This document shows, one piece after another, positions 9,701 to 38,816 of a stretch of 64,000 nt of DNA. The notes beneath the pieces were generated by a model that made no database searches, was not told the DNA's origin, and saw nothing but the letters and a program-made list of their open reading frames with translations. Position 1 is the first letter of the stretch. Every line of letters begins with the position of its first letter. The stretch lies in NCBI GenBank assembly GCA_038087875.1, contig CM075994.1, forward strand, positions 9,426,001 through 9,490,000, read 5' to 3'. The stretch is from Malacoraja senta. Its lineage: Eukaryota. Position numbers and translations under genes: made by a program.

Positions 9701-9903
9701 TTATTCTGCACTTGCTTCACATAAATATTGCGAACCCGACTGAGACCAGAGTAGGGACAGCAGCAGAGATAATTTAACTTGGTCACTCGCGTTGCAGAGG
9801 TCAGCATTGCAACATTTGTTAGAACCTGAGGCACCATTATAAGCTGGCAGTTTATTACAATCAGCAAGGGTCATACATCCAGCGTTGTAAATTGTAGCAC
9901 CAG
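9701..9903 (-). CDS. Ly6/uPAR (three-finger) protein, last coding exon
   Basis: Acceptor ttctgtttttccag, phase 1; encodes AGATIYNAGCMTLADCNKLPAYNGASGSNKCCNADLCN (CCxxDLCN signature) plus C-terminal tail. Confidence 0.9.
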
Positions 9904-9959
9904 CTGGAAAAACAGAATGGACAGTTAAATAATTTCTGTGTTCATAGTTCATGTACAAT

Positions 9960-10700
9960 TTTAGAGTGATACAGTGTGGTAACAGGCCCTTCGGCCCAAC
10001 TTGCCCACACTGGCCAACATGTCTCAGCTACACTAGTCTCACCTGCCTGCGCTTGGTCCATATCCCTCCAAATCTGTCCCATCCATGTACCTGTCTAACT
10101 GTTTCTTAAACGTTGCGATAGTCCCAGCCTCAACTACCTCCTCTGGCAGCTTGTTCCATACACCCCACCACCCTTTGTGTGAATGCCACTGAGTTTTCAC
10201 ATTTCTACGAGTAAATCAGCTATTTATTCAATAGACAATAGACAATAAACAAGAGGTGCAGGAGTAAGCCATTCAGCCCTTCGAGCCAGCACCGCCATTC
10301 AATGTGATCATGGCTGATCATCCCCAATCAGTACCCCGTTCCTGCCTTCTCCCCATATCCCCTAACTCCGCTATCTTTAAGAGCCCTATCTAGCACTCTC
10401 TTGATATTCACAGAATCGCACAGTCTTAACATCTTTACGAGGATGTTGCCAGGACAAGAGGGTGTGAGCTATAGGGAGAGGTTGAGCAGGCTGGGTCTCT
10501 ATTCCTTGGAGCGCAGGAGGATGAGGGGTGATCCTGCAGAAGTGTATAGAATCTTGAGCGAAATAGATCGGGTAGATGCACAGAGTCTCTTGCCCATAGT
10601 AGTTGAATTGAGAACAGGTTTAAGGTGAAGGGGGAAAAGATTTAATAGGAATCTGAGCGGTAACCTTTTCACACAAAGGGTGGTGGGTGTATGTTTCCGC
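9960..10700. mobile_element. Three CR1 3' fragments (two minus, one plus) in the Ly6 last intron
   Basis: CR1 3' UTR motifs; ORF 10401-10628 contains LGLYSLERRRMRGD. Confidence 0.8.
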
Positions 10701-10749
10701 GCTGTATCTCTAAACTAGAGGTGTGCATCTCAAATTGGTTCTCACTTAC

Positions 10750-10857
10750 CAGTCTTCTTAACCCCAATGTGGCATTGATCCTCCACAGTGCATTTAGTAT
10801 TTTTACCATCGCATCTATCTGTTGTTGAATTGCAAGAGTAACACTCCAAACAGTTAC
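10750..10857 (-). CDS. Ly6/uPAR protein, middle coding exon
   Basis: Acceptor ttttgttctcaatgtacag, donor G|gtaagtgag, 108 nt, phase 1-1; encodes NCLECYSCNSTTDRCDGKNTKCTVEDQCHIGVKKT (LxCYxC LU-domain start). Confidence 0.9.
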
Positions 10858-11933
10858 CTGTACATTGAGAACAAAACAGATGAGGTTGTGTGAGAGACTC
10901 CTGTAGCTCGTTCTGCTGCTGCTCTGAAAACGAGCAACTCCTTTCAATAAACATAGAACAGTACCGACACAAAATGCTGGAGTAACTCAGCGGGTCAGGC
11001 AGCCTCTCTGGAGAAGAGTGTAGGTGATGTTTTGGTCGAGACCCTCGCTCACCCAAGTGGTTGTACTGGCTTGTAAGTCGTCTAGTTGAGTCTCATTGTC
11101 TGTAACTCGTTCTCTCCCAACCCACAGCTAACAATGGCCTCTTTCCTCTATCATCTTAACTTTTTTGCATAATATTCATTCATCTATCTTCAATCTATAT
11201 ATTACTTAAGCTCTCATCTTGTTTGTTTGGATGTCTGCGTGGGAGTGAGACACTGAAATTACACCAAAACGGTACACGATAACGCTACAATCTTGGACCA
11301 CCTAACTCACAATTGTCTTGTGGTGTGTTTTTATCAAGTTTCGTTCAGATTTATGTTATATTTCACAAGTTATTCACATTTAAAACTTTACAAAATCCAG
11401 TTTGACAAAGAATAGTAAGATTAAACGAGAACTTACCAGTTGGAAGTTTGATCTTTATTTTATGAGGAGTTACGATGAGCGATTACGTGAAGAAGGCCGT
11501 CAACCCGCATGCACATCAATCTTCAAAGCAGCGGTGTGAAATCACAGATAACAGTTGTTGAACTAACATAGTAAGATTAGAGATGACTAGAACTACCAGA
11601 TGATCTTTATGATACGAGGGTTGGGAGCGGAGTGCACGTAATCGCTCATCGTAACTCCTCATAAAATAAAGATCAAACTTCAAACTGGTAAGTTCTCGTT
11701 TAATCTTACTATTTTACTTCGGCGTCACGTGAGTGACTACGTGAATATTTTAAAGCTCTGTGATTTCATGCCGTGGAAACGAGTCCATGCGTCACACACT
11801 GCATCAGTTGACCAGGATGAGTGAAAATAATTAATGCATACAGACATGACATAGATACAAAATGCTGATACTTTAATAATCAAAGAAAATAATAGTGACC
11901 CCTCTCACCCAGGGGGAAACTATAAAACAGAAC

Positions 11934-12990
11934 CTAAAATAGAATTAGCAAAAGTTTGTTATAAAACCTTTGGTACGTCAGTTCATTAGACCATCCTGCA
12001 GCCGCTAGAATGTGGTCGAGAGGGACATCTATATCCCTCACTGCTGAAGTAGATGCAGCCCTGGTGGAATGAGGTTTAAAAGTGTCAGTGTCCACTCCTG
12101 CACATGCCAGCACCTGTTTTATCCATCTTGAAATGGTCTGCACTGTAACCTTCCTATGAGGTTTAGTGTAGCTGATGAATAAGGATAATTCCGAGCCTCT
12201 GAGGCTCCTAGTGACCTTAATGTATTGTAGTATGTGAGAAACCACACACAACCGTAGGTCTAAGGGGTATGCCATAAAAATTAATTTGAGCCCCGACACC
12301 CCTGTCTGCTCTGCTTAATTAAATCATAAACAAAATTGGTGATGTTGTCAAAAGATGAAACCATGCTGTCCAGTCTAAGTTTATTTAACGTCTGGACCCG
12401 TTGTGCTGAAACCAGCGCCATGAGCATGACCACCTTGAGAGTGAGATTAGGCAGAGACAGAGATGAAGCTGGAGCCCCCTGGCGAAGCGTGAGTACCATG
12501 CTCACATCCCATATCTGTGAATATCTGGGCATAGGGGGGTAGAGTTAAAAATGCCCTTCATAAATCTGGTTATTAAGGGGTGAGATCCGACAGTGTGGTT
12601 CCCTGACCCCAGCCATAAGTAAGATGATAATGCACTCCTAGCACTATTTATGGCACTATAACTGAGTTTCTGATCGTAGAATAGACTTCTAAAAAAAAAA
12701 AAAAACTGGAGAGTCAAATGCAACGAAAATTTCGTTCTAGGTGCACTGTGTATAGGTGTATATCTGAATGACAATAAAGTTTTCATTCATTCATTCATTC
12801 AAAGGAACTCCAAAACATCCGTAATGGAAGCCGTGCCATACGGAATTTTCGAGAGAGAGCAGTACATCTCCCATTTCCTTATATGAGAGATGTACTGTTT
12901 CTGGGTGCTCTTCCTCCAGGCCGCAGTGATCACATCAACCATACAATCTGAAAGTCCGAGCCCCAGGAACGGTCTCCTCAGAATCTTCAA
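11934..12990 (-). pseudogene. DIRS tyrosine recombinase, frameshifted and interrupted
   Basis: Motifs SAQRVQTL, FKPHSTRAAS, AAGWS..TYQRFY; SAM-like N-terminal part (AWRKSTQKQY, SYSAINSARSALS). Confidence 0.9.
12690..12800 (+). mobile_element. Short retroposon 3'-tail insertion in the DIRS YR gene
   Basis: A-run, CAACGAAAATTTCGTTC...CTGAATGACAATAAAG and (TTCA)n tail; interrupts YR coding continuity. Confidence 0.7.
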
Positions 12991-14945
12991 ACCAATAAAT
13001 TGATTCGGTCATGAAGAGGATGGTTTTCCCCTGTCACAGGATGAACCAGCAGATTTCTGCTTTTGGGGACAGCTATAAAAGGCTGTGTAATCATACCTAG
13101 GACGAGTGGGAACCAATGCTGTGTGGGCCAGTCTGGTACTACCAATATGCCAGAGGCGGAGTCTTGCTTGATCTTGGCCAAGCATCGACTGATGAGGCAA
13201 AATGGGGGAAAGGCATACAAGAACTTCCCACCCCAGTGTAGCGAGAATGCATCTACTGCTACTGCCCCTGGGTCTGGTTCCCATGAAACGTAATTTGGTA
13301 ACTGATGATTTAGTCTAGATGCAAACAAATCAATATCCGGTACGCCATACCGAGCGACAATGTCGTTAAACACTTCATGATTCAACATCCATTCTTTGTT
13401 GTCATTGAATTTCCATGACCTGGTGTCCGCCACCATATTATATCTACCTGGTAAGTAGATAGCTGTAACCCAGATGTTTCTCGTAATAAACCAGTGCCAA
13501 ATAAGGTTAGACAATTTATCACAGGATACAGACTTAATTTCACCCGTGATTAATTTATGCCACCGCTGTAGTGTTGTCAATCTGAAGTTGAACATGCACA
13601 TGATGCATATTGCTACAATAAGCCTTTAGCCCATAGAGTGCTCCCAACAACTCTAAGTAGTTAATACCATGTGACTGAAGAATTGATGATTCCTGCATAT
13701 TCCATCTGCCACCGCAGCTTGAGACGATGTTGGTAGCACCCCAACCTAGAGCACTAGCATCAGTTTGTAGGATACCTGATGGTGTATCAACTAAAATTGT
13801 ACTGGAGCAATGCCGAATTGTAACTCAGCAATGGCTTCAGCTGGCAACCGCATAGGTCTACCGAAGTGACCTTTAATAAGTTTGAGTGCCTGCTCCTTTG
13901 CACGTTGTAAGTTTTGGTAGGGCGAAGGGCCGAACTGAGCAGCTGGGAAAGAAGCCGCTAATTTGCCAATTATACTAGCCACATGTTGGTTCTTAACAGT
14001 GAGATTGCTACAGGCTTCAATTAATTCTAGTTGCTTGCCCCAAGGCAGAGTCACTGACATGTGAATAGAGTTAATGGTGAATCTCAAATAATCAATTACT
14101 CTAGATGGTGCCAATTTGGATTTAACTGGATGGATGAGGAACCCCAATCTCTCAAACATGAGTTTAGTAGCTGACACAGATAATTCAGCTAATTTCATAG
14201 TTTTCCCTATGATTAGGATGTCATCCAAGTATGCCATGACAATATGATTCTGTGCCCTGAGTAGCCCCAGGACTGGTTTTAGCAATTTAGTGAATAGTCT
14301 GGGGGCTGAGGTTAACCCATTAGGCAATGCTTTTAACTGCCACAGTTGCCCCATCCAGCTAAACTTAAAATATCTCCGGTGGTCCCCATGAATGGCCACT
14401 GAATAATATGCATCTTTGAGGTCGATGCATGCCATATAACATCCCTTGGAAATCAGTTGTTTGGCAGTAGCAAAGTTTTCCATTTTGAAGTGTTTATACT
14501 GCACACAGGTGTTACACTCAGTCAAGTCAAGAATAATTCGGCATCCTCCATCCTTCTTTTGCTTAATGAATATATTGGACACAAATTGGTGAGACTCATG
14601 ACTCAACATCTCAATTACCCCTTTTTTGTGTAAAGATTTGTTTTCAGCTTGCGCATCCGCACACTCCTGTTGTGAAGGAACAAATGTGCGGTTCGGTGTA
14701 TGCTGTGTGAGTGGAGGCGAATTTAAAAGGAACTCAATTTGGAAACCTTGTATACTGTGCAGTATAAACGGATCTGATGTTATCCAATGCCATTCATTCA
14801 AGATAAATTGTAATCTCCCCCCAACTTGTAACTGATCCATAGACAATGTGTTACGCAAACAACCAGACTCACTTACCTCAATGGTTATCGGCGGAATGGT
14901 GTTTGTTTCTGCCCCCGAGGTCTGGGGGCTGTTGGAGGGCGCCAT
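12987..14945 (-). pseudogene. DIRS pol: reverse transcriptase, RNase H and N6-adenine methyltransferase-like domain, frameshifted
   Basis: IDLKDAYY, LPNGLTSAP, AYLDDILI; ILQTDASALGWG near 13740-13775; DLFASRLN and YAFPPF. Confidence 0.93.
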
Positions 14946-16110
14946 CCGCGCATCTTGAATGTGGACCGGCTTGGGCCTTGCCCTAAAAAAGGTCTCTGTG
15001 CCTGGTGTTCGTGCTGCCCACCATATCCGGCGAACCGTCTGGTGTTGAGAGGATAGGGGTACGGCCGCCGGAAAGATGAAGTCTTGGAAGGTGTTGGGAC
15101 CTTCATAAGCCTGACCGCTTTAGCCTCATCATCCAGCTCCCTGACCTGCTTTGGCAGATCTTCACCAAACAGGAGGTTTGGTGGTTGGATGTTCCCGGCC
15201 TTGCACAATGCTGCAAATTTGGGGTTCAGAGCAGGACGGATGGCATTCTTACAAAGGCAATTTATCTCAAAATGTGCATTGCACATTAATGCCATGGCGT
15301 CCTGTTGAACATCAGAGAGGGGCCCCCCATCCACCGACCTGGCAAAGGCCGTGATGCCTGAGGCAAGTAATCTTAACATTTTTTGTAGTTTTACCTCCTG
15401 GGCTTTGACGCCCCCTCCAATGTAACCCCAGATGGAGTGATTTACTGCCGGGACATTCAATGAGGCACAGTTTGCTGGGGTATGGTATTTGGTGGTGGTT
15501 TCCTCCATGGCCTGATCTTGGAGCTGGTGAGAGGCCAGGTAATGAATGCTCATGGCTAAATCCTCTCCCAGCGGTTCCCGTTAGGGAAGGTATAGCAAAT
15601 TTGGATGCCATGGGGGGTATTTCCGAATCTTGCCCTTCATGCCTAGAAGTATGCTCCCCAGGTGTGCCTCCGTACTTTGAGTCAGTGTAGAACTGACCTC
15701 GTATGCTCCCCTCCTCAGGGGGGGGGGACATTGTGCAGCCCTGAGACAGGTGCCGCTGCCGCGGGCTCTCTAGAATACCCGGGCTCAGATAGCTCCCTCC
15801 TTTGGAGTATATCACTTTGGAGCAACCTCTCCATTAGGTGCTCCATGTGGGTCAGTTGCCCAAAGACGCTGCCCATAGGAGGAGGAGAATCCTCCTGGCC
15901 CAACTCTTCTGAGTCCAGGGGCCTGACAGACTTCTTGGTGGCTTTCCTCCCCAGCGGGGTAGCCAAGGTGCTTTCTATCGGCACCAAGTCTGTAGCCGCT
16001 GGCTCCACTGCCAGCGACCCGGAAGGCGAAATTGGTGGCCACCCGCTACCCGCAGGCTCGCGGTCTTCAGTAGCCGGTTTCCCTGCGGCCCGCCTCTTCA
16101 CCTTAGACAT
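14885..16110 (-). pseudogene. DIRS gag-like ORF1, frameshifted
   Basis: ORFs 15715-16110 and 14885-15553 (P.NC..L.VP.VN..IW, LLFGEDL) lie upstream of and overlap the RT ORF. Confidence 0.75.
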
Positions 16111-16856
16111 AGTCTCCGCAAAGTTCGAATACTGTCTGTAAGTAGAGTAAATGAACCTTGAGCAACGATCTCAAAGAGAGTATAAGCACTTACCTGGGGG
16201 GTTTTAAACTTACCGCTGGAAGGAGCGACGCGCCCGCCAGGCAGTCGTTGCGCAATGCGTTAGTAATGACGCGCATGCGGGTTGACGGCCTTCTTCCACG
16301 TAATCACTCACGTGACTCTGAAGTAAAATCAGCGGTGGCAGTTACACCTATGACATCACAATGGGATTTCATTCATATAACTTGCCTGTGAGCAGTGTTC
16401 CAGCAGCTTCCACCTCCATGAGGGTAGGGAGGGAGTGAGATTTAAAAAAACAACCGGTTTTAATCAAATACCTTGGGTTTCATTTAAAAAAACATCATGG
16501 CTTTGACTGTGCGTGTGGTGGAATAGGGGAGAGGTTTCATTTACAAAAAAAAATCGACATTTTCATTGTGGGGGGTGGGATGGGTGGGAGGGGAGTCTGT
16601 TGATTGGCTCCAGGGAGCGCCGACAACACCCTCCACCCACGTGGGGCCAATTGATTGCCACAGGGGAGCGCAGACTGAGGGTAGGGGAAAGAAGAGGGGA
16701 GGGAATGCTGAGGGATAAGGGGAAATGAGACGCTGTTGAGGGCTATGTGTGAGTGGTGGAATATTGAGTTGGGGGAACGGTTCCGTTGGGGGAATGGATG
16801 TGTGGTGGAAGATTGCGTTGGGGGAATGGGGCCCAATGGGTCCCACTGGTCTAGTA

Positions 16857-18013
16857 TCTATCTATATACTTAAAAGTCTAATCTTGACCACTTCCTGTTT
16901 GCGCTCTATAATGATTTAGAAAAAACGCTACCACGTACGGCTGTGGTTTTTGGCTGTCGTACTCAGAGTCCCCTCCGCTCATCAGGTGCCGAGGATTTTT
17001 TTCCATAGATGAAAAATAAAAGAGTTATTAGTGTTTAAAAAATGTTGAGATTCTCTTTCCTTTCAACCACGCCCCGAAGGCCACGCCTCTTCTGGTGGGA
17101 GGGGGAGGGGCTATAAACCCGGAAGTGTGGGCGTGGCTCAGTCTCTGCAAGATGGGTGAGGGAGAGGACATGACTCTCTGTCTGAGCTGTGAATCAACTG
17201 AACACACTGAATGTCTACTGAACTGTGAGGTTTGTGGTGTTTTGTGGAGTTTCATGCGGGTTTATGACGGTTTTATGGTGGTTTCACCCTGAATTTGAAT
17301 TTGCTTGCCTTGCACCCTGCTTGAAATGGTATGAAACTGCACTTGAATTTGGTGGCCCTGCACCCTGCTTTAAATGGTATGAAACTGCACTTGAACTTGG
17401 TTGCCTTGCACCATGCTTGAAATGGTATGAAACTGCACTTGAATTTGGTGGCCTCGCACCCTGCATGAAAAGGCATGAAACTGCATTTGAATTTGGTGGC
17501 CTTGCACCCTGCTTGAAATGGTATGAAACTGCACTGGAATTTGGTGGTCTTGCACCCTGCTTGAACTGGTATGAAACTGCATTTGAATGTGGTGGCCTTG
17601 CACCCTGCTTGAAATGGTATGAAACTGCATTTGAATTTGGTGGCCTTACACCCTGCTTGAAATGGTATGAAACTGCATTTGAATTTGGTGGCCTTGCACC
17701 CTGCTTGAAATGGAATTTCAAGAAATAGCCGTGAATCAACTGTCAGCCCACCAGCCGTGAGTGAGTGAGCTGCCAGCACACCAGGCTTGAGTGACTGAGC
17801 TGCCAGCCCAATAATCCATTCGGCCCACAATATCCATACTAGCCCTCTGGAAGCAAGTCCCTTCAGCCCACAACACCCATACTAGCACTCCAGAATGCCC
17901 CCCCCCCCCCCCACTGGCCACCAATATTGGAATTTGTGGAGAGGTGGAATATTGCATTGGGGGACCTTCCCTCTCATGTGAACATGGGACCCAACGGGTC
18001 CCACTTAGTCTAG
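16857..18013 (+). mobile_element. Non-autonomous Helitron, family B, unit 2
   Basis: 5' TCTATCTATATACT; 3' perfect hairpin GGGACCC-AAC-GGGTCCC, then ACTTAGT-CTAG|T. Confidence 0.8.
17290..17720. repeat. 48-bp minisatellite, ~9 copies, inside Helitron unit 2
   Basis: Unit GCACCCTGCTTGAAATGGTATGAAACTGCA(C/T)TTGAATTTGGTGGCCTT; 16-aa periodicity in the ORF track. Confidence 0.95.
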
Positions 18014-18977
18014 TATATTACTAAAACTCTCATCTTACTTGTCTCTATGCGCGTGTGTGTGTGTGTGTAATTATGATCACGGAACTACGCCAAAACGGTA
18101 CACAATAGCGCTAATAGATTTTGCACCACCTTACTCACAATTGTCCTGTGGTGGTTTGTATCAAGTTACGTTCAGATTGATGTTATATTTCACAAATTAT
18201 TCCACATTTTTTAATTTAAAAAATCCAAATTTGAGAAACAATTCTTCCCTCTGCAGCTATGACTTCACAATGGGATTGTAACCATACCAGCTACAATGTT
18301 GCAATCCCGGGACACTCAGTCCTGACAGCACTAGCAAGTGCAATTGCAAGCTACAATTAGGCTGTGGGCCGAGGAGCTTTATTCTGGTGTTTCGTGACCC
18401 AAATCACGGAACTACATGAAATTTTCGCATATTGTGTAAAAATATTATATAAATCATCCCTGAAACTCGTCAAGAACAAAACTTGCACATTTTTATTAAA
18501 TTAGAGAAAAAACGGAAAATCTTTGGGTATTTTTAGTCCAATCAAAGCACGTTTAACACGGACGCCAGTTGGCCAATCACGCTCTTTGTTTCAGGCTGGC
18601 TAGGCAGGGAGCACACAACATGGCTGAGAGGACTTCACTGATGCCTGTTTTACTGGAGTTTCTGATGAAGGTTCTTTCTAGTTCTGTGGAATACATGTCG
18701 TGGAAACTTGCAGCAGGGTCATTGAATTTAGTGAGAAAAGCATTAAGAAGTCTGAAGAATGTGCAGCTAAGTGGATAGAAGTGGAAGAAAGTCTTGAAAG
18801 CAAAGTCCCTGCTGAGATGCTGCAACACGAAGTCGTGAAACCAGTGAAACATTGTGAATCAATGAACTGAAAGGTAAGATCTAAAGTCTGAATTTATGAA
18901 AATTAATCTGTATGGACTTTAATTAATTTAATTGCACCCTTTTATAATGTGAAAAAATGAGATTTGGAGGCTGTACA

Positions 18978-19098
18978 TTCACTCATTCATTCATTCATTC
19001 ACTCATTCATTCACTCATTCATTCACTCATTCATTCACTCATTCATTCACTCATTCACTCACTCATTCATTCACTCATTCACTTATTCATTCATTCAT
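18978..19098. repeat. (TCAT/TCAC)n microsatellite
   Basis: Directly visible. Confidence 0.95.
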
Positions 19099-19894
19099 GA
19101 AGTTGAAGGCCTAAACTATGTGTATCCATAACAAGATAAATTAAACATTTTCACTAATGCCAGCTTGTTGGAGTGTAATAAGTCTTTAACATCTAATCTC
19201 GGAGCTGCCTGCGATAACTTACCGAGTACAAGTGCTCCGATCGCGGGGCCTAGGTACTTAACATAGTGAAGCCGCGGTCTCAATTAAGAAGCGGCCGATT
19301 CGCGAACGCGGAGCCGCGGAGTGTGTTTGGATCATCTCCGCGGGGGGGGGGGGGAAGGCTGTACATAGTGCCGTCCGTAGAGGCCGCTTCCAGGCCCCGA
19401 CCACGGGAGAAAAACGGACGAATATTCATTGCACTTTAAAGGCTTCCATTGAAGTGAGAAATGGTCAGAAATGGCTGATGTTTATGTAGAAATGAATTGG
19501 TGTATGTGAACTTGAACTTGAATTAATTTATCTATGGTAGTAACAGTGTTATTCTCATTAACATTAAGAAGAGGTTGAAATTTTATGAATTGAAGTCTAT
19601 GCAGACTTAATGACTATGAGATGTTTTTTTTTGTAGCCTCTGCCTGACCCTCCACTTGAACTTGAACTAACTTATCAATGGGCATCAAAACTTATCAAAA
19701 GACTTGGAATCTGATGAAGAATATTCAGATGAAGATCAGATGTAATGTAAACAAATAAATTGGGGAAATAAATGATTATATAAAGTTTTATTTTAATGTC
19801 GATCGTTTCACTGTTTATTTGGTCAAATTATTTAAACAATGAGTGAATTAATTATGACAATGGCGTGCTGGTGAATGACAGTGCAACAGTCCAC

Positions 19895-20182
19895 CAACCC
19901 ATCCACACATACATACATACACAGATACACACACACATCCATCCATACGCACACTTCCATGCATGCACACACACACACATACATGCACACATACATCCGC
20001 ACACACACATCCACACATACATCCGCACGCAGACATACATATACACATCCATGCACACACATACATCCACACACATACATCCACACATACATCCACACAT
20101 CCAGCCATCCACACATACATATACACTTACATCCACACATCCACAGATACACGTTTGACAGGTATGCACAGACACACACACA
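19895..20182. repeat. Degenerate CA/CAT-rich simple repeat
   Basis: Directly visible. Confidence 0.9.
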
Positions 20183-20889
20183 AACTACAGATACTCAAAC
20201 AATGCAACACTTTTAGGGTTATTTTAGGTTAAAGGTAATAGCCCTCATTTGCAAAGGCACCATGGGGGGTCTCTAACATAAATATAGTCTCATTGTAGCT
20301 TAAAATGAATATTCATCGAGTAAACATCAGAGCATTCGATTCTTGGTCAGGATGTGACATTTACATCAGAAATAAGACAGGTCTCTTACAGATCTGTCCC
20401 CCAGCCTGGCACTGCCCCAGTCCCACATTGGCCGTTACCCCCATTCTCCCCACTATGGCAGTCAGTGGGGTTCAGTAAACGGGGGAACCTAGAGGCTCTG
20501 TCCTGGCCCTTTAATTAGGCAGGTTCATGAGCCCTTAAAACCTGGGACCTCTGCTGCAGTCTCATTAAATTTCCTATTAAAGCAACTGGAAGATGCCTTG
20601 CAGGACTGTCCCCCAGCCTGGAACTACCCCAGTCCCACTATGGCCGTGACCCCCACTCTGCACACTGGCAGTCAGTGGGGTTCAGTAAAGGGAGGAACCC
20701 ACAAGATCGGCCCTCACCCATTAATTAGACTGGTTCAGGAGCAGGACTTCTGCGACAGTGTCATTAAAAAAACACTCACAATTATATTCATCATATTATT
20801 TTTATATAATATAATATACTTAATTATATATGATTACAGTCATATTTACATAATATATATATATATATACCTATATATACCTATATATA

Positions 20890-20923
<34 letters not shown>

Positions 20924-25910: not shown

Positions 25911-25912
<2 letters not shown>

Positions 25913-26007
<95 letters not shown>

Positions 26008-26020
26008 CGCGCGTGCGCGC

Positions 26021-26051
<31 letters not shown>

Positions 26052-26067
26052 TGTGTGCGTGTGTGTG
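25913..26067. repeat. (GT)n/(GCGT)n microsatellite
   Basis: Directly visible. Confidence 0.97.
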
Positions 26068-26935: not shown

Positions 26936-27354
26936 AGACATCTATCCTACTTCAGATTTCCAAAAGTGAAGAGAAATTAAAGTAAAGAGAAGCGAGCGCT
27001 GAAGGGACAAAAACAGCTAAAGTGTTTGGCGAACATTGGCCGTGCAGTTATCGAGATTGAAAATATTGGGAATTATCGCCTTTGCTCACTGCATTTCATC
27101 AACAATAATGCATTATTTGTGTTTTCTCTTGATTCCTTTGGTATCTGAAAAGTTTCAGAAGTGATAAATCTGGCTGTAAAATTTTAAAATCGCCCATGGT
27201 TCTGAAGTGGGTTTTACATGCAAAAAGAAAACACTTCTGACGCTAAATTTATCTTCCCCTCCGCCCTCTGGGCGTACGTGACCAGGAGCTATGTGTCGAA
27301 ACATGGCGTAATTTAATTGCGCAACTATAGAAACTTGCAAGGCTTACCTTTGGC

Positions 27355-28508
<1,154 letters not shown>

Positions 28509-29186
28509 TCCGATAGACCACGAGAGGCAATATCAGGAGACAGGACATGGAACTGATACGAGAATAGAGAAGTGACGCAAGAACAGAGATGTACAGAATA
28601 TAGATAGGTTCACATATGGCCATGTTGGGATATCAGCTGCCAATCAACAGTGTTCCATCCAGTGCAATGAGAGATCTTACATTGTTGTGAGGAGAGGGAG
28701 TGAATGGGGAAGGGAGCGAGTGGGGGAGGGGAGAGTGAAGAGGGAGGGAGAAGAGGGAGGGTGAAGAGGAGTGAGAGGGAGAGTTGGGGGATGAGGGGAA
28801 ATGAGCCGCGCCTGCGCAGTTGGGGGCTATGGGTGAGTGGTGGAATATTGCGTTGGGGGAACGGGTTACGTTGGGGGAAACGGGTTACGTTGGGGGAACG
28901 GGTTACGTTGGGGAAAACAGGTTACGTTGGGGGAACAGGTTCTTCATATTGAGTCCACACACATGATTAGAAGCTGTTCAGCCAGAGCTGAACACATTTC
29001 TCGGCATCTGCATACAAGGTTCTGCATACAAGGTGTCTGTCTTGTCGTCTCTTGTGCGCGGTGGTGGAAAGATTTGGTGGAAACAGGGCCGCGATGTGAA
29101 CGTTCTTTCCTTGACCCCGGGGGAACGGGTGAGTGGTGGATTTTTGCATTGGGGGAACGAGACCCAACGGGTCCCACTTGGTCCAG

Positions 29187-32100
29187 TACATTACTAAAAC
29201 TCATCTTGTTTGTTTGCCCAGATTGTACCTATATTTGCGCAAAAATGGTACACACTAGCAGTACAATTTTTGCACCACCTTACTCACCATTGTCCTGTGA
29301 TGTGAAAAAAAAGACTTTTGTTCAGATTGATGCCATCTTTTACAAGTTATTCGCGTTTAAATCTTAAAAAAAAACACTTAAAACCACCTGTCTGCCCCAC
29401 AGCAGTGATGCTCCCCACAATGACATCACAATGGGATCTCATTTACATATTGTCTGCTCCTCAGCAGTGATCCACCCACAATTGGGGAGGGACTCAAATA
29501 GAGAAAGCTATTAGACAGTGTGAGGCAGGAGGCAGAGAAGGAAAGCACTCAGACCCAACATGTAGGGGGGAAAGAAGAAAACAATAATAAACAGAGAATA
29601 AGAGGTGGTAGGGTTCTTAAATGGGTGAGCAGAGAAACAGAGGGGTGTAAAATGGGGGCGGAAGCAATAGGTAGCAAGATGAAAAGTAAAAGTGGCAGGC
29701 AGACAAATCGAGGGCAAAAATCAAAAAGGGCCACTTTTCAACATAATTATAAAAGGGGTAAGAGCGTTGTAAAAAGAAGCCTGAAGGCTTTGTGTCTCAA
29801 TGCAAGGAGCATTCGTAATAAGGTGGATGAGTTGAACGTGCAGATAGCAATTAATGATTATGATATAGTTGGGATCACGGAGACATGGCTCCAGGGTGAC
29901 CAAGGCTGGGAGCTGAACATCCAGGGATATTCAATATTCAGGAGGGATAGAGAGAAAGGAAAAGGAGGTGGGGAAGCGTTGTTGGTTAGAGAGGAGATTA
30001 ACGCAGTGGAAAGGAAGGACATTAGCTTGGAGGATGTGGAATCGGTATGGGTAGAGCTGTGAAAAACTAAGAGGCAGAAAACGCTGGTGGGTGTTGTGTA
30101 CAGGCCACCGAACAGTAGTAGTTGGGGATGGCATCAAACAGGAAATTAGAAATGCGTGCAACAAAGGTAAAACAGTTATAATGGGCGACTTCAATGTACA
30201 TATAGATTGGGTGAATCAAATTGGCTGGGGTGCTGAGGAAGAGGATTTCTTGGAATGTATGCGGGATAGTTATCTAAACCAACATGTAGAGGAACCAACG
30301 AGAGAGCAGGCTATTCTAGACTGGGTATTGAGTAATGAGGTAGGGTTAGTTAGCAGTCTTGTTGTGCGTGCCCCCTTGGGCAAGAGTGACCATAATATGG
30401 TTGAGTTCTTCATTAGGATGGAGAGTGACATAGTTAATTCAGAAACAATGGTTCTGAACTTAAAGAAAGGTAATTTGAGGGTATGAGACGTGAATTGGCC
30501 AAGATTGACTGGCAATTAGTTCTAAAAGTGTTGACGGTGGATATGCAATGGAAGGCATTTAAAGACTGCATGGATGAACTACAAAAATTGTTCATCCCAG
30601 TTTGGCAAAAGAATAAATCAGGGAAGGTAGTGCATCCGTGGATAACAAGGGAAATCAGGGATAGTATCAAAGCAAAAGATGATGCGTCCAAATTAGCCAC
30701 AAAAAGCAGCATACCAGAGGACTGGCAGAAATTCAGAGACCAGCAGAGGAGGACAAAGGGCTTAATTAGGAAAGGGAAAATAGATTATGAAAGAAAACTG
30801 GCAGGGAACATAAAAACTGACTGCAAAAGTTTTTATAGATATGTGAAGAGAAAGAGATTAGTTAACACAAATGTAGGTCCCTTGCAGTTAGAAACAGGTG
30901 AATTGATCATGGGGAACAAGGATATGGCGGACCAATTGAATAACAACTTTGGTTCCGTCTTCACTGAGGAAGACATAAATAATCTGCCGGAAATAGCAGG
31001 GGACCGCGGGTCAAAGGAGATGGAGGAACTGAGTGAAATCCAGGTTAGTCAGGAAGTGGTGTTGGGTAAATTGCATGGATTAAAGGCCGATAAATCACCT
31101 GGGCCAGATAGGCTGCAACCCAGAGTACTTAAGGAAGTAGCTCCAGAAATAGTGGATGCATTAGTGATTATTTTTGTCAAAATTCTTTCGGTTCTGGAGT
31201 AGTTCCTGAGGATTGGAGGGTAGCAAACGTAACCCCACTTTTTAAGAAGAGAGGGAGAGAGAAAACGGGGAATTACAGACCAGTTAGTCTAACATCGGTA
31301 GTGGGGAAACTGCTAGTCAGTTATTAAAGATGGGATAGCAGCACATTTGGAAAGTGGTGAAATCATTGGACAAAGTCAGCATGGATTTACGAAAGGTAAA
31401 TCATGTCTGACGAATCTTATAGAATTTTTCGAGGATGTAACTAGTAGAGTGGATAGGGGAGAACCAGTGGATGTGTTGTATCTGGACTTTCAGGAGGCTT
31501 TCGACAAGGTCCCACATAAGAGATTAGTATACAAACTTAAAGCACACGGTATAGGTGGTTCGGTATTGATGTGGATAGAGAACTGGCTGGCAAACAGAAA
31601 GCAAAGAGTAGGAGTAAACGGGTCCTTTTCACAATGGCAGGCAGTGACTAGTGGGGTACCGCAAGACTCAGTGCTGGGACTCCAGCTATTTACAATTTAT
31701 ATTAATGATCTGATTGAGGGAATTGAAGGCAACATCTCCAAGTTTGCGGATGACACTAAGCTGGGGGGCAGTGTTAGCTGTGAGGAGGATGCTAGGAGAC
31801 TGCAAGGTGACTTGGATAGGCTGGGTGAGTGGGCAAATGTTTGGCAGATGCAGTATAATGTGGATAAATGTGAGGTTATCCACTTTGGAGGCAAAAACAG
31901 GAAAGCAGACTATTATCTAAATGGTGGCCGATTAGGAAAACAGGAGATGCAGCGAGACCTGGGTGTCATGGTACACCAGTCATTGAAAGTAGGCATGCAG
32001 GTGCAGCAGGCAGTGAAGAAAGCAAATGGTATGTTAGCTTTCATAGCAAAAGGATTTGAGTATGGGAGCAGGGAGGTTCTACTGCAGTTGTAGAGGGTGT

Positions 32101-32940
32101 TGGTAAGACCACACCTGGAGTATTGCGTACAGGTTTGGTCTCCAAATCTGAGGAAGGACATTATTGCCATAGAGGAAGTGCAGAGAAGGTTCACCAGACT
32201 GATTCCTGGGATGTCAGGACTTTCATATGAAGAAAGACTGGATAGACTCGGCTTATACTCGCTAGAATTTAGGAGATTGAGAGGGGATCTTATAGAAACT
32301 TACAAAATTCTTATGGGGTTGGTCAGGCTAGATGCAGGAAGATTGTTCCCGATGTTGGGGAAGTCCAGGATAAGGGGTCACAGCTTAAGGATAAGGGGGA
32401 AATCTTTTAAGACCGAGATGAGAAAAACAATTTTCACACAGAGAGTGGTGAATCTCTGGAACCCTCTGCCACAGAGGGTAGTTGAGGCCAGTTCATTGGC
32501 TATATTTAAGAGGGAGTTAGATGTGGCCCTTGTGGCTAAAGGGATCAGGGGGTATGGAGAGAAGGCAGGTACGGGATACTGAGTTGGATGATCAGCCATG
32601 ATCATATTGAATGGCGGTGCAGGCTCGAAGGGCCGAATGGCCTACTCCTGCACCTATTTTCTATGTATCTATGTATCTAATTACATCAAAGTGGGTTCTC
32701 ATTTACATAAAATAAAAAAACACAGTAGCTTCCATCTCGCAATGACATCAAGGGCGATAGGGAGAGGAAAGGGATTATGGAGGGAGGGAGGGAGTTACTG
32801 AGGGTAGGGGAAAGGAGAGGGTGGGAGAGGTTAGGGAGGGAATAGGGAGGGGAGAAGGAGAGGGGAAAAAGGCTGTTAGGGGCTATCGGTGAGTGGTGGA
32901 ATATTGCGTTGGGGGAACGGGCCCGACGGGTCCCACCTGT
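29187..32940 (+). mobile_element. Non-autonomous Helitron, family A, unit 5 (contains a CR1)
   Basis: Starts TACATTACTAAAACTCATCTTG with family A body; ends GGAATATTGCGTTGGGGGAACGGGCCCGACGGGTCCCAC; terminal CTAG not preserved. Confidence 0.65.
29483..32678 (+). mobile_element. CR1 LINE with near-complete degenerate ORF2 (APE endonuclease + RT), 5'-truncated
   Basis: [38 protein letters not shown]; (CTATGTAT)n tail; AATT on both flanks. Confidence 0.95.
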
Positions 32941-33364
32941 TTGTTCTATATCTACATCTATTTTTCTCATTTTCCTTTCACCTGACTCTCAGTCTGAAGA
33001 AGGGTCTCGACCCGAAACGTCACCTATTCCTTCTCTCCAGAGATGCTGCCCATCCCGCTGAGTAAATAGACGGGACTGAACCTTGGAGAGGAGGGAGAGG
33101 GAGTTGGGGAGGGAGCGGATGAGGGAAAGGGAGAGATGGGTGTAGTGGGAATGGGGAAAAGGGAAGGGGTGAGGTGGAGGAGAGAGGGGGAGGGGAGAGA
33201 GGGAGGGGAGAGGGGAGGGAGAACAAATACTCATTGATATTTTATTTAATGGTACAACAAACTGAACAAATGAATTCAAACTTGTATACGATAAAATCTT
33301 AACTGAACACATAACTTCATAATTTGCATTCATATTTCTACAAATATGATATTTGTATTATATT

Positions 33365-33705
33365 AAAAGGACAAAGGACAAGGACAAAGGACAAAGGACA
33401 TTTATTGTCACATACACCAAATGGTGTAGTGAAATTTGTCTTGCCATGCAGCACAAATTAGATACATTAAAGAAATTTAACATAAAACATAAAAACATTC
33501 CCCCACAATGGTTCCCACTGTGGGGAAGGCACACATTCCAGTCCCCCATCCCATGCCCACCGATAGTCGGGCCTATTGAGGCCTCCACAGTCGCCTTCAC
33601 GGAGGCCCGATGTTCCAGGCCGTTCTCGCCGGGTGATGGTGCTCCGGTGTCGGGAGAAACCCTCTCAGCGGCTTGGGACACCTGGAACGGCCGCCTCCTT
33701 ACTCG
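33365..33705 (-). mobile_element. Non-autonomous retroposon 3' part with (CCTTTGT)n tail
   Basis: Same tail architecture as 24410 and 39010 (hairpin + TGACAATAAA + microsatellite). Confidence 0.55.
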
Positions 33706-33940
33706 AAACATGGCAACATGGCAATACAGCATAAAAGAATGCACTATACAAGATTTCTGCGCACACGAACTACTAAAAATTAGAGGATAATGGTTTTGAC
33801 CTGAAACGCACCATTCCTTCTATCTGGGACATATAACAATAAAACACTCTTGCCTTGACAAAAGCTAACTTCATATTCAGTAACAAACTCTCTACGTGTG
33901 AACGAACACACAGCTTAATGTTTAACCAATAATTCCAATC

Positions 33941-36900
33941 ATAGAATCATAGAATCATAGAATCATAGAAAGTAGGTGCGAGAGCAGACCACCAGGTCCA
34001 TCGAGCCCGCACCGCCATTCGCTCATGGCTGAACACCAAACAAACAAACACCCCCACCCACAAACAGTAGACACAAGACACAGAACACAAGACACTACCC
34101 TCCCCTTTATAGCGCTATCACCCCTCTCCACCCCAAGAACCGAGTGATCTCCTGGGGGAGGCAAAAAACCGGATAAAAACCCAGGTCCAATTCGGGAAAA
34201 AAATCCGGGAAATTCCTCTCCGACCCCAATCCAGGCGATCGACACTTGTCCCAGGAGATCACTCAGGTCTTACTATACTAACCCTACCTAGGTCCATATC
34301 CCTGCCCTCTCCCCGTAGCCCCTTATCCCCTTGGCAGCTAAAAAACCATCTATTTTAGACTTAAATATATTTAATGTTTCTGCTTCCACTGCTCCCTGGG
34401 GCAGTGAATTCCATAAATTAACCACCCTCTGGGTGAAGAAGTTCTTCCTCATCTCAGTTTTAAAAGAGCCCCCCCTTATTCTACAACTATGTCCCCTAGT
34501 TCTAGTTTCCCCGATCATTGGGAACATCCTCGGTGCATCCACCCGATCAATGCCCCTCACGATCTTATATGTTTCAATGAGATCGCCTCTCATTCTTCTA
34601 AACTCCAAAGAGTAGAGTTCCAGCCTACTTAACCTTTCCTCATATGTCAATCCCCTCATTGCAGGAATTAATCTTGTAAACCTTCGCTGCACTGCCTCCA
34701 GGCCAGTACATCATTTCTTAAGTATGGGACCCCAGAACTGTACACAGTATTCCAAATGTGGTCTCACTAATACTGTGTACAGCTGCAGCAAGACCTCCGT
34801 GTTTTTATACTCAATCCCCCTAGCAATAAAGGCCAAAACTCCATTGGCCTTCCTGATAGCTTGCTGCACCTGCATACTAACTTTTAGTGATTCATGTACT
34901 ACTACCCCTAGATCCCTTTGCGTGCATTACAGCGCAGCTCCTCCTCATTTAGAAAATAACTCGCCCTATCATTTTTTTTCCCAAAGTGTATGACTTCACA
35001 TTTATTAGTATTAAATTTCATCTGCCAAGTTGTTGCCCACTCACCTAGCTTATCTATATCCTTTGCAGACTCTTCCTATCCTCATCCCCTACTTTCTTCC
35101 CATTTTTGTATCGTCCGCAAATTTTGATATATTACACTTGGTTCCCTCCTCCAAATCATTTATATAAATTGTGAACAACTGGGGTCCCAGCACCGCCTTG
35201 CGGAACCCCGCTAGTTACCGGTTGCCATCCCGAATATGAACCATTTATCCCCACTCTCTGCTTCCTATTTGTTAGCCAATCCTCTACCCATGCTATATAT
35301 TACCCCCAATCCCATAATTTTTTATTTTTAGCAATAGTCTCTTATGTGGCACCTTGTCAAAAGCCTTTTGGAAGTCCAAGTATACCACATCCACCGGTTC
35401 CCCTTTATTCACCCGGGTTGTTACTTCCTCAAAGAATTCGAGCAGATTTGTTAAACAGGACTTCCCCTTCACAAAACCATGCTGGTTCTGTCCGATGAAG
35501 TCATGTCTATCCAAGTGCCCCGTTAGTGTTTCTTTAATAATTGTCTCTAACATTTTACCCACCACCGATGTTAGACTAACCGGTCTATAGTTACCCGCCT
35601 TCTGTTTACTTCCTTTTTTAAATATAGGTGTTACATTGGCCAATTTCCAATCCACTGGGACCGTTCCTGCCTCCAGGGAGTTTTGGAAAATTATCACCAA
35701 TGCATCCACAATCCCCACCGCTATCTCCTCAAAACCCTTGGATGTAATCCATCAGGCCCAGAGGATTTATCCTCCTTCAGTCTCATTAATTTCCCTAATA
35801 CCACCTCCTTGGTGATCTTAATAGTATTTAGCTCCTCATTCCTACCTCCCCTGTTTATCCAGCGTTGGAATATTTTTTGTGTCTTCTATGGTGAAGACTG
35901 ATACAAAATACTCGTTTAATGCCTTTGCCATTTCCATGTTCCCCACCAACAACTCTCCAGTCTCACCCTCCAATGGACCAACGTTCACCTTAGCCACCCT
36001 TTTTCTTTTTATATAGCTATAAAAACTCTTACTATTAGTTTTTATGTTGTTCGCTAAATTCCTTTCATAGTCTATTTCCCCCGTCTTAATTAATCTCTTA
36101 GTTATTTTTTGCTGACCTTTAAATGCTTCCCAATCCTCTACCCTCCCACTATCTCTGGCTACCTTATATGCCCTTGCCTTCAGCCGAATACTATCCTTTA
36201 TGTTTTACTGAGCCATGGCTGACTGTTCTTACCCTTACCCCTTTTTTTCTTCATAGGAATAAATTTTTCTTGAAGGTTATACAGTAGATCCTTAAACGTA
36301 CACCACTGCTCATGTACCGTCTTATTCTTGAGTCTGCTATCCCAGTCAACTTTGATCAGCTCAGTCCTCATACCTTCATAATCCCCCTTATTTAGACTAA
36401 GTACCCTAGCCTGAGTTTCAACCTGCTCCCCTTCTATTTGAATATGGAATTCGACCATATTGTGGTCACTTGTTCCCAACGAGTCCCTAACTATGACATT
36501 TTTAATTAATCCTGCTTCATTACACAGGACCAGATCCAAGATTGCCTCCCCCCTTGTCGGTTCTGTGACATACTGTTCTAAGAACCCGTCTCTAATACAT
36601 TCTATAAACTCTTCTTCTAGTTACCCTGCCCAGTTTGGTTTGCCCAATTAATATGAAAATTGAAGTCCCCCATGATTACAGCAGTTCCCATTTTACATGC
36701 GTCAACTATTTTGCAGATTTATGTTCTGACTAACAGCGTCACAGCTATTTGGAGGTCTATAAATTACACCCACTAGTGTTTTTTCCCCTTGTTATTCTTT
36801 ATCTGTACCCAAGCTGTTTCACTATCCTGATCCTTCAATGCAATATCCTTCCCTCTCTATTGCCGTTATTCCCTCCCTTATTAAAAGGGCCACCCCTCCT

Positions 36901-38437
36901 CCCTTTCTTTCCTGTCTATTTTTTCTAATTGTCGAGTACCCCTCTATATTTAACTCCCAGTCCTGATCCCCTGCAGCCATGTCTCCGTAATGGCCACGAT
37001 ATCATAACTATATATACTTAATTGCACCGTTAATTCATTTATCTTATTTCGAATACTCCCGTGCATTTAGATACAGCACTTTCAGATGATTTTTACTACC
37101 CTTCCTTTCTGTTTTTGCCTCTTTTACATCTAGAGCTTTATCTTCACACATTCTGAATCCTCCTGTCACATTTTGATTTTCCGTTTCCCCACTGATACCC
37201 TGCTCTATTTCCTCTACCCCTGCCGTTATTACCACCCTTGATACCTCCCCCCCGCTACTTAGTTTAAAGACCTCTCTACTGCCCTAGTTATATGATTTGC
37301 CAGGACCCCAGTCCCAGCACCGTTCAGGTGAAGTCCGTCCTTACAGAACAGATCCCCCCTGTCCCAGTACTGGTGCCAGTGGCCCAAGAAAACCAAACCC
37401 ATTATTCCCACACCAGTCTTTTAGCCACGCATTCAGCTTTTTAATTTTACGTACTCTCGCCGATTTGGCCCGTGGCTCAGGTAGCAATCCGGAGATCAGT
37501 ACCTCGAGGTCTGCTTTTTAATTTATTCCCTAACTGCTCAAACTCCTTCAGCAGATCCTCCTTCCTCGTCCTTCCTATGTCATTGGTCCCCACATGGACC
37601 ACGACCACTGGATCCTCCCCCTCCCTCTGCAAATTTCTCTCCAGCATCGCAGAGATATCCTTAACCCTAGCACCGGGTAGGCAACACAGCCTTCGGGACA
37701 TGTTCTGCTGGCCACAGAGAACCTTATCTACCCCCCGAATAATACTATCCCCTATCACAACGGCATTTCTTCTAACTCCCCCCTCTTGAATGTCCCCCTG
37801 ATCCACGGTGCTGCAGCCAGGTTGCTCATCCCTCCCACAGCCCCTGTTCCCGTCCTCACATTGAGTAAGAGCCTCGGTCATGCTCGTCAGGAACAAGGGC
37901 TGTGGCTCCTGCCGCATCTCCTCCTGGTTCCCCCTACCTGCCTCGCTTATGGCCACACCTTCCTTTCCTTGCTCACTCACTACTGAATTAGTTAAACTGG
38001 TCGGTGTGACCATCCCCTGGTACAAAACATCCAGGTAATACTCCCCCTCCCTGATGTACCGCAGCGTATGAAGTTGGATCTCCAGCTCCTCAATGCGGAG
38101 CTCGAGTTCCGCTAGCCTCAAACACTTACTGCAGCTGTAGGGATCATCCACACCATCTACATCAATGGTGTCGACAAATTCCCACATCTCACAGTATTGG
38201 CACATCTCCTGGCCGCCCATCTTATATAAGTAAATAACTGGTCCTATTTAAGAATCCCCTACCCGGATTACTATATTAATACACCCCTTATTTATATAAT
38301 CCTACCTCCTATTGATACACCCCTTATTTATATAATCCTACCTCCTATAAATGGGAAAGTACTCACCCCAGCCGTAAATTACCTACTGGTTTGGCTGTCT
38401 AATAGTAATCCGTCCGCTCTTCCTGTCTGGTCCACTG
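33941..38437 (-). mobile_element. Full-length CR1 LINE (ORF1 with Zn-finger, coiled coil and SGNH esterase; ORF2 APE + RT, frameshifted)
   Basis: ORF 37477-38220 has CxxC...CxxC, IGDSIIR, CLPGA, VHVGTND; ORF2 fragments; (TTCTATGA)n tail; boundaries set by the empty site at ~61475. Confidence 0.95.
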
Positions 38438-38507
38438 CCCACTTGAGAATCTAAAATGCCTTTCCACAGTTAAACTAGAGGACAACAAAATAGTTATATT
38501 TCCTTAC

Positions 38508-38559
38508 CCGGAGAGGCACTGAGAATGACACCAGCTACCAGGACCACAAGGCAATTCAT
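38508..38559 (-). CDS. Ly6/uPAR protein, signal-peptide exon (exon probably 38580-38508 including 5' UTR)
   Basis: aaagATG context; MNCLVVLVAGVILSASP+G, 52 nt, donor G|gtaagg in phase 1 matching the 10857 exon; upstream acceptor ttttctctcttgccctcgaag. Link to the downstream exons is inferred. Confidence 0.78.
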
Positions 38560-38816
38560 CTTTGGATTTGAACAGCTGAGCTTCGAGGGCAAGAGAGAAA
38601 ACATGAAAATTTTGAACTGAAGTCTTCAAATTTCCTGAAATCTGAAGAAGGATCCCAACAGGAAACGTCACCAGTCCGTGTTCTCCAGAGATGCTGCCCG
38701 ACTCGCCGAGTTACGCCAGCACTCTGAGCCTTTATTGAAAACCCCTTGTGATTTTGACTATGGGATGGTCTTACAGAGGTAGGGGGGAGGAGGCAAGGAA
38801 AAGATTGAATTACTGA

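What the first reader, a model, noticed from the sequence alone, without database searches (positions are those of the whole stretch)
9701..38580. Hidden three-finger (Ly6/uPAR) gene whose first coding intron is inflated to 27.6 kb by nested TEs
Seen: three minus-strand exons with canonical splice sites and matching phase 1. They join to MNCLVVLVAGVILSASPG-NC-LECYSCNSTTDRCDGKNTKCTVEDQCHIGVKKT-AGATIYNAGCMTLADCNKLPAYNGASGSNKCCNADLCN-tail. Known: this is the 10-Cys LU fold with the usual Ly6 layout of signal exon plus two domain exons. Inference: the 38.5 kb exon belongs to this gene; removing recognisable TEs leaves at most ~1.4 kb of intron. The ORF track misses the spliced gene, so it may be unannotated. 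An acceptor before the ATG implies a non-coding first exon that I could not locate.
Basis: partly seen in the sequence, partly recalled or inferred. Interest (0 to 1): 0.72.

Follow-up and report, generated by a model that had tools for sequence, protein, structure and literature searches.

The report
Skate Ly6 gene, anchor signal frameshifted
This is a real three-finger (Ly6) cell-surface gene from a fast-diversifying, multi-copy skate family; its long transposon-filled intron is ordinary, but this copy's membrane-anchor signal is one base out of frame, which is either an assembly error or a natural loss of the anchor.

Summary
The three minus-strand exons are real (38559-38508, 10857-10750, 9903-9701; AG/GT, phase 1/1). 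They encode a 120-aa protein with a 10-cysteine LU domain. It falls inside a skate clade of RefSeq 'PSCA-like/CD59-like' proteins (98/97), whose members start with nearly the same signal peptide (mean 82%). That supports the distant exon, and none of 303 candidates inside the intron qualifies. Splicing itself was not observed. The 27,650-nt intron is about 90% repeat; 2.7 kb remains, not 1.4 kb.

(1) A second signal exon lies on the plus strand at 61356-61407, so this is probably a cluster. (2) The family keeps its signal and GPI tail nearly constant while the mature domain varies (97/66/99% within Rhinoraja). (3) This copy's GPI tail is one base out of frame: spanning contigs in 3 of 4 relatives' runs carry an extra base at 9756. 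Error versus real loss is about even; 4 of 27 skate proteins also lack the tail.

Verdict: new member of a known superfamily. No description of the skate expansion was found in the searches run.

The parts
38508..38559 (-). Exon A coding part: ATG and signal peptide (17 codons + 1 base), phase-1 GT donor
   Evidence: family profile hit E 2e-6
38560..38580 (-). 5' untranslated part of exon A, behind a polypyrimidine/AG acceptor; implies an upstream non-coding exon (not located)
   Evidence: 0 of 21 mismatches against the second copy
10858..38507 (-). Intron 1 (inferred), 27,650 nt, about 90% repeat
   Evidence: 24,904 nt covered by TE spans, self-matches and tandem repeats
33950..38437 (-). CR1-type LINE (GDSL-like ORF1 and RT; class label recalled), frameshifted; ends approximate
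29430..32690 (+). CR1-type LINE, 5'-truncated; its 3' part is 96% identical to the copy at 5316-6639; ends approximate
27357..28507 (.). (GT)n microsatellite, 576 copies
22252..25757 (.). Element with short terminal inverted repeats and a 9-bp flank duplication (8 of 9 match); hAT-like label recalled
18390..21165 (.). Element bounded by 37-bp inverted repeats (92%); non-autonomous DNA transposon inferred
11411..16329 (-). RT retroelement with inverted and internally complementary terminal repeats; DIRS-like label recalled
   Evidence: RVT_1 E 7e-17; repeats
10750..10857 (-). Exon B, 108 nt, phase 1/1: end of the signal peptide and LU cysteines 1-5
9904..10749 (-). Intron 2, 846 nt, 659 nt of it repeat
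9701..9903 (-). Exon C coding part: LU cysteines 6-10, CCxxxxCN, spacer and tail to the stop as read in the window
9756..9757 (-). Site where relatives carry one more base; downstream the family's hydrophobic GPI tail lies in another frame (stop at 9719-9717)
9462..9700 (-). 3' UTR ending in AATAAA (9467-9462)
   Evidence: covered by relatives' contigs
61335..61407 (+). Exon A': second signal exon (ATG 61356, GT donor at 61408), 51 of 52 coding bases identical to exon A, pointing away from this gene; its domain exons are not in the window

Best explanation
One gene of a skate-expanded, clustered family of single-domain Ly6/uPAR proteins. A non-coding first exon (inferred) splices to signal exon A, across a transposon-swollen intron to exon B, then to exon C. 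The signal peptide is cut just before the LxCxxC motif (inferred) and five disulfides fold a three-finger domain. In typical members a 24-residue C-terminal signal puts the protein on a GPI anchor at the cell surface. The family evolves by birth and death: trafficking signals stay fixed while the binding surface changes. I read that as diversifying selection on a surface recognition or decoy protein at an epithelial or immune interface (function inferred, about 0.5). In this copy a one-base gap shifts the anchor signal out of frame. I put 0.55 on it being real, giving an anchor-less (secreted or decaying) copy, and 0.45 on an assembly error. Shown: exons, LU identity, family membership, variability pattern, the one-base difference. 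Inferred: the splice, expression, anchor loss, function.
For: Exon boundaries and phases. Family profile: joined protein 127.8 bits; mature part 71.0 versus at most 5.1 in 200 shuffles. Only 2 of 953 ATG-to-phase-1-donor candidates pass donor and hydrophobicity cut-offs, exons A and A'; 0 of 303 in the intron. Best real phmmer hit is Rhinoraja XP_078272409 (E 3.3e-7), above Pfam cut-offs for CD59, Toxin_TOLIP and UPAR_LY6. The 21 best of 57 profile hits are all from three skates. The window protein lies in the skate clade (98/97) and 10 Rhinoraja rows form their own clade (100/97). 24 of 72 mature columns have 5 or more residue types, against 0 of 20 signal and 0 of 24 tail columns. Extra base behind 9756 at full depth in X1 (2 contigs), X20 (1) and X21 (1). 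Window tail's last 15 residues average -0.66 hydropathy, against 2.14-2.35 in 20 of 21 family rows.
Against: No exon-exon joint was listed in the three RNA-guess runs; the tables were swamped by repeats, with 582 joints hidden. No run held half of the query words, so the window's own DNA and RNA were not tested. Single exons stay below Pfam cut-offs. The nonsynonymous excess against the nearest relative's contig (13 versus 1 among 14 listed of 17 differences) is not significant: p 0.13, and 0.68 if the 3 hidden ones are synonymous. One-base indels separate repeat copies in this window at 8 per 3,941 and 4 per 1,321 aligned bases, and the gap sits at a two-base run in relatives, so an error is plausible. 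All 4 tail-less relatives come from one species' annotation. No tissue or binding data.
Confidence: 0.72

Rival explanations
1. The gene is an ordinary intact GPI-anchored family member and the one-base gap is a consensus error. (This shares the gene model of the best explanation and differs only on the tail.)
For: Every spanning contig in X1, X20 and X21 has the extra base. In X1 this includes a low-depth contig (about 20) inferred to share the window's letters at 9752 and 9764, so probably the orthologue (my reading of the depth sums). The shifted frame still encodes a near-perfect tail, 2 of 12 residues changed. One-base indels are frequent between repeat copies here.
Against: A nearby L1 keeps a 989-codon open frame with one break in 3.8 kb, so errors are not dense everywhere. 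One tail codon invariant in 20 of 20 family rows is also changed only in the window. Other tail-less members are annotated.
Confidence: 0.45
2. The copy is a decaying pseudogene: frameshift plus TE load, and its long branch reflects relaxed constraint.
For: Frameshifted tail with an extra cysteine; terminal branch 0.75 against a median of 0.21; a threonine invariant in 21 of 21 rows is changed; Amblyraja P0035 is a frameshifted copy ending in the same frame (15 of 17 residues identical).
Against: All 10 cysteines, five splice sites and the poly(A) signal are intact, with no stop in the domain. Exon A and its adjacent bases differ from A' at 2 of 143 positions against 25 of 251 upstream (p 7e-4), though gene conversion would give the same.
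Confidence: 0.2
3. Exon A is an orphan or belongs to another model; exon B splices from a different signal exon further upstream or lost.
For: Signal exons come in near-identical copies. Amblyraja isoform pairs X1/X2 differ only in the signal peptide, which suggests more than one signal exon can be modelled onto the same domain exons. DNA beyond 64000 was not available.
Against: Exon A is the only qualifying minus-strand signal exon anywhere in the window and no other domain exon lies between A and B; A' is on the other strand.
Confidence: 0.08
4. The family diversifies for reproduction or chemical signalling (as Bouncer/SPACA4 or salamander PMF), or modulates nicotinic receptors (as Lynx1/PSCA), rather than acting at an immune barrier.
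For: Hypervariable coding sequence with near-constant flanks is the PMF pattern (PMC6487043 passage: about 30% protein identity, about 98% UTR identity). Bouncer and SPACA4-like proteins are among the profile hits. Human PSCA is the first Foldseek row for the family model, E 0.011.
Against: Bouncer/SPACA4 rows form a separate long branch outside the skate clade. A conserved host receptor would not be expected to drive this variability (inference). No tissue data either way.
Confidence: 0.35

Closest known systems
Skate RefSeq 'PSCA-like' / 'CD59 glycoprotein-like' proteins (Rhinoraja XP_078272408-414 and XP_078271930-937 in part; Amblyraja XP_0329035xx-9043xx; Leucoraja XP_0554/0555xxxxx)
   Same: Signal peptide (mean 82%, best 94%), 10-Cys spacing, spacer after CCxxxxCN (95%), same clade.
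   Different: Mature domain only 36-49% identical to any of 21 members; the tail after the spacer is out of frame (23%). Their names are automatic best-hit labels, not tested functions.
Single-LU GPI-anchored Ly6/uPAR proteins: CD59, PSCA, LY6E, LYPD2, GPIHBP1
   Same: Three coding exons, phase-1 introns, GPI signal in exon 3, clustered genes (PMC4839075 and PMC6600238 passages). The family profile finds CD59 (E 1.6e-8) and PSCA (E 3.9e-6) in the PDB.
   Different: No orthology shown: the skate proteins form their own clade on a long branch and synteny could not be tested. Multi-copy and hypervariable, unlike CD59 or PSCA in mammals (recalled).
Snake three-finger toxins and secreted SLURPs
   Same: Fold, exon layout, birth-and-death cluster with orphan exons; origin by loss of the membrane-anchoring region (PMC10421932 abstract and passages).
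   Different: 23 of 27 skate proteins keep the GPI tail; this copy has a 29-residue read-through tail rather than ending at CN; no venom context or activity evidence.
Salamander plethodontid modulating factor (PMF)
   Same: Many-copy three-finger family with hypervariable coding sequence and conserved flanks.
   Different: PMF is a secreted pheromone with shown positive selection; the skate family is mostly GPI-tailed and selection is untested.

Membership tests
Ly6/uPAR (LU) superfamily | Ten cysteines in LU spacing with LxCxxC start and CCxxxxCN end | tested here: met
   definition from PMC4839075 section 7
Ly6/uPAR (LU) superfamily | Signal exon plus two domain exons with phase-1 introns | tested here: met
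   (DNA level); definition
Ly6/uPAR (LU) superfamily | Pfam UPAR_LY6 / Toxin_TOLIP / CD59 match above cut-off | tested here: inconclusive
   Single exons below cut-off; the joined protein was not scanned against Pfam; homologue P0007 passes all three and the family profile recognises the window protein
Ly6/uPAR (LU) superfamily | Three-finger fold | tested here: inconclusive
   Model is of homologue P0007, not the window protein (mean pLDDT 66.7); Foldseek top rows PSCA and GPIHBP1, none at E 0.001 or better
Skate PSCA/CD59-like expansion | Family signal peptide and spacer; placement in the skate clade | tested here: met
GPI-anchored LU proteins | C-terminal hydrophobic GPI signal in frame | tested here: not met
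   Window frame ends in a polar tail; the hydrophobic tail is in a shifted frame; may be an assembly error
Snake three-finger toxins | Secreted protein ending at the LU domain, from the snake 3FTx clade | tested here: not met
   29 residues follow CN; the protein groups with GPI-tailed skate proteins (which held no snake toxins)
Snake three-finger toxins | Venom-gland expression and toxic activity | not testable with these tools
   no expression or activity data
CD59 / PSCA orthologues | Synteny and complement or nAChR activity | not testable with these tools
   no genome held; no other host gene recognised in the window

The most novel reading that the evidence does not exclude
Skates carry an undescribed, species-specifically radiating repertoire of hypervariable three-finger proteins under diversifying selection, in which the GPI anchor is being lost repeatedly (this copy; Amblyraja XP_032903525/526 and XP_032868473). 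That would be a living, independent replay in a cartilaginous fish of the membrane-to-secreted step proposed for the origin of snake three-finger toxins, with this gene a young secreted member.
Probability: 0.27. Interest if true: 0.7.

Novelty: new member of a known kind. Interest (0 to 1): 0.42.

Why it matters
The gene and its long intron are ordinary: elasmobranch introns are known to be long and repeat-filled, and lineage-specific expansion is called a hallmark of LU proteins. What deserves follow-up is the family. Ten or more near-identical signal and anchor cassettes with strongly diverged binding domains in one skate point to an unidentified fast-changing partner. If the anchor losses are real, skates offer a second vertebrate case in which the tethered-to-secreted transition can be dated and tested. 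RefSeq's 'CD59-like', 'PSCA-like' and toxin-like names hide that these are one family.

Tried and rejected
No genome is held for the window, so the cluster beyond 64 kb and synteny could not be examined. Pfam on single exons was below cut-off; PDB phmmer with exon C gave 0 hits; a word-seeded homologue search with exon C gave 8 candidates, none significant. 4 of 5 phmmer hits were repetitive proteins with unrelated Pfam matches and were dropped. No RNA holder was listed. In one search exon B (10772-10823) had no cover in any of 4 runs, 9836-9887 was covered by one X1 contig only, and no exon joint was listed; these blanks are not used as evidence. The exon-B Atlas score of 0.77 is a lead only. 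Rfam: 0 matches. The motif scan gave two further hits (+14749, -2186), rejected because the family profile does not recover them. The upstream non-coding exon was not located; a TATA scan between the two signal exons was uninformative. Three look-ups of earlier findings returned nothing. Literature on a skate Ly6 expansion: searches listed no such paper; the Rhinoraja genome preprint's main text has no Ly6, CD59 or PSCA mention, but its supplementary tandem-cluster table was not seen and may list the cluster. The library lacks most subscription papers. No complex prediction was sent: there is no candidate partner.

Full report
Observation. Exon A (38559-38508) has an ATG, 17 codons plus one base and a GT donor. 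Exon B (10857-10750) is 108 nt between AG and GT. Exon C starts behind an AG at 9903 and runs to a stop at 9703-9701. Both introns are phase 1. AATAAA lies at 9467-9462. Joined, they give 120 residues with ten cysteines in the mature part.

Identity. Single exons miss Pfam cut-offs. A phmmer search with exon C gave 5 hits, of which 4 were repetitive unrelated proteins and 1, P0007, aligned over the whole query (E 3.3e-7). P0007 is Rhinoraja longicauda XP_078272409 'prostate stem cell antigen-like' and passes the CD59, Toxin_TOLIP and UPAR_LY6 cut-offs. It found 19 proteins among 24 candidates: 7 Rhinoraja, 7 Amblyraja and 5 Leucoraja rows. A profile of 21 sequences found 57 among 1,713 candidates; the best 21 (E 3.4e-23 or better) are all skate, and the next is a teleost at 2.6e-12. 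No shark or ray was listed, but that search is word-seeded and does not show absence. The profile scores the window's joined protein at 127.8 bits, and a mature-only profile scores its mature part at 71.0 against at most 5.1 for 200 shuffles. In a tree of 41 rows (24 of the 27 skate proteins fetched, 16 of the 36 non-skate hits, and the window protein cut before the frameshift) the window protein lies in the skate clade (98/97) on a long end branch (0.75). The window is therefore inferred to be from a skate.

Does exon A belong? Family members begin with nearly the same signal peptide (mean 82%, best 94% identical) directly in front of an exon-B-type domain. Of 953 ATG-to-phase-1-donor candidates on both strands, 2 pass a donor score of 5 and a hydrophobicity of 2.2; none of the 303 in the intron does (the donor matrix is an approximate one from recall). 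A six-frame search with the family profile finds only exons A, B, C, the shifted tail and one more signal exon at E below 0.05. The splice itself was not seen: no run held half of the query's words, and laying four relatives' runs listed no exon joint among tables dominated by repeats.

The intron. It is 27,650 nt. Three RT elements take 12,668 nt. With two TIR-bounded elements, self-matches and tandem repeats, 24,904 nt are covered and 2,746 remain; 7,496 remain if the TIR interiors are not counted. No repeat library was available, so these are upper bounds, but the figure of 1.4 kb was not reproduced. Class labels (CR1, DIRS-like, hAT-like) are recalled. The intron is about 13 times the little skate median of 2,167 bp (PMC10115646 passage). 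Intron elongation by repeats is the reported elasmobranch pattern (bioRxiv 2025.06.08.657570 passages), so it is long but not surprising.

Missed feature 1: a second signal exon. Region 38438-38832 matches 61477-61080 at 92% over 400 nt in inverted orientation. The copy has its ATG at 61356, its donor at 61408 and the same acceptor, and 51 of 52 coding bases are identical. Exon plus adjacent bases differ at 2 of 143 positions against 25 of 251 upstream (p 7e-4), which fits selection or gene conversion. It points out of the window, so it is probably a head-to-head paralogue, or an orphan exon.

Missed feature 2: a hypervariable family. Pairwise identity among 21 members is 84% in the signal, 53-60% in the domain exons and 93-98% in the tail. 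Among nine Rhinoraja rows it is 97, 66 and 99%. Of 72 mature columns, 24 hold five or more residue types, against none of 20 signal and 24 tail columns. Ten Rhinoraja rows form one clade (100/97) and all report the same 41.5-Mb contig length; some may be isoforms of one locus. Against the nearest relative's contig over exon C, 13 of 14 listed differences (of 17) are nonsynonymous, but this is not significant (p 0.13; 0.68 in the worst case). Diversifying selection is thus suggested, not shown.

Missed feature 3: the anchor signal is out of frame. In the window the tail has about ten hydrophobic residues and then a polar end (last-15 hydropathy -0.66; 2.14-2.35 in 20 of 21 family rows). The family's hydrophobic end lies in a shifted frame. 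Contigs of X1, X20 and X21 carry one more base behind 9756 at their full depth; X18 shows none, its listed contigs ending at 9757. For an error: one-base indels separate repeat copies at 8 per 3,941 and 4 per 1,321 bases, and the shifted frame is still nearly intact. For a real change: a nearby L1 keeps 989 open codons, a tryptophan codon invariant in 20 of 20 rows is also changed only in the window, and 4 of 27 skate proteins lack the tail: P0029 and P0033 (one locus), P0034, and frameshifted P0035, whose last 17 residues match the window's tail at 15. All four are from Amblyraja and could themselves be errors. I give 0.55 to real.

Mechanism. Typical members are GPI-tethered single-LU proteins, whose loops and concave sheet face mediate protein binding (PMC6600238 passage). 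Fixed trafficking signals around a changing domain suggest a changing partner. I favour a recognition or decoy role at an epithelial or immune surface (about 0.5, inference), over reproduction or signalling and nicotinic-receptor modulation (about 0.35 together). A UPAR/Ly6 fragment is listed in shark skin mucus (PMC10707392 table row), but its relation to this family was not tested. If the gap is real, this copy would be secreted, retained in the ER or decaying.

Comparison and novelty. It meets the LU definition (PMC4839075 passages and section 7). It fails the in-frame GPI test as assembled, and it is not a snake three-finger toxin. An AlphaFold model of homologue P0007 (pLDDT 66.7) gave PSCA and GPIHBP1 as top Foldseek rows, none at E 0.001 or better. 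The family profile finds CD59 and PSCA among 23 PDB sequences, and the Atlas ranks PSCA, CD59 and LY6E clusters at 0.92-0.93. Loss of the anchor is the step proposed for toxin origin (PMC10421932 abstract and passages), and hypervariable coding sequence with conserved flanks is known from salamander PMF (PMC6487043 passages). Lineage-specific LU expansions are a known hallmark. Seven searches listed no paper on a skate expansion; PMC6337849 and PMC9605692 were read as passages only and did not describe one; the Rhinoraja preprint's supplements were not seen. Verdict: a new member of a known superfamily, interest 0.42, carried by the family pattern and the possible anchor loss, not by the intron.

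Noticed in passing
window 38816-39199 and 41166-41547: Direct duplication (92% over 388 nt) of the DNA just upstream of exon A; its end overlaps the start of the block shared with A' (61080). Possibly a scar of the duplication that made the two genes.
   Followed up: partly
window 41548-43638: Longest stretch without self-match between the two head-to-head signal exons (2.1 kb); candidate place for promoters or non-coding first exons. It holds a 70-codon stop-free minus frame at 42837-43049 of unknown meaning.
   Followed up: partly
window 53580-59860 (+): Nearly intact L1-type LINE: 354-aa ORF1, 989-aa endonuclease/RT frame with one break, poly(A) tail; a 93.5% identical truncated copy lies at 46342-50293.
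   Followed up: partly
window 62055-63651: Tc1/Sleeping-Beauty-like transposon with 96% identical 219-nt inverted repeats and a 332-aa transposase frame, about 650 nt into the first intron of A'.
   Followed up: partly
window 59976-60908 (-): 310-aa stop-free frame resembling the 3' end of an L2-type LINE (label recalled); no Pfam hit at E 0.001.
   Followed up: no
window 51027-52007: GC-rich (77%) minisatellite of about 30-bp units.
   Followed up: no
proteins P0026/P0031 and P0029/P0033: Amblyraja RefSeq isoform pairs X1/X2 differ only in the signal peptide, suggesting alternative or mis-assigned signal exons in the cluster.
   Followed up: no
protein P0017: One Rhinoraja member lacks two cysteines (8 instead of 10), the 2-3 pair whose loss is described as frequent in diversifying LU families.
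   Followed up: no
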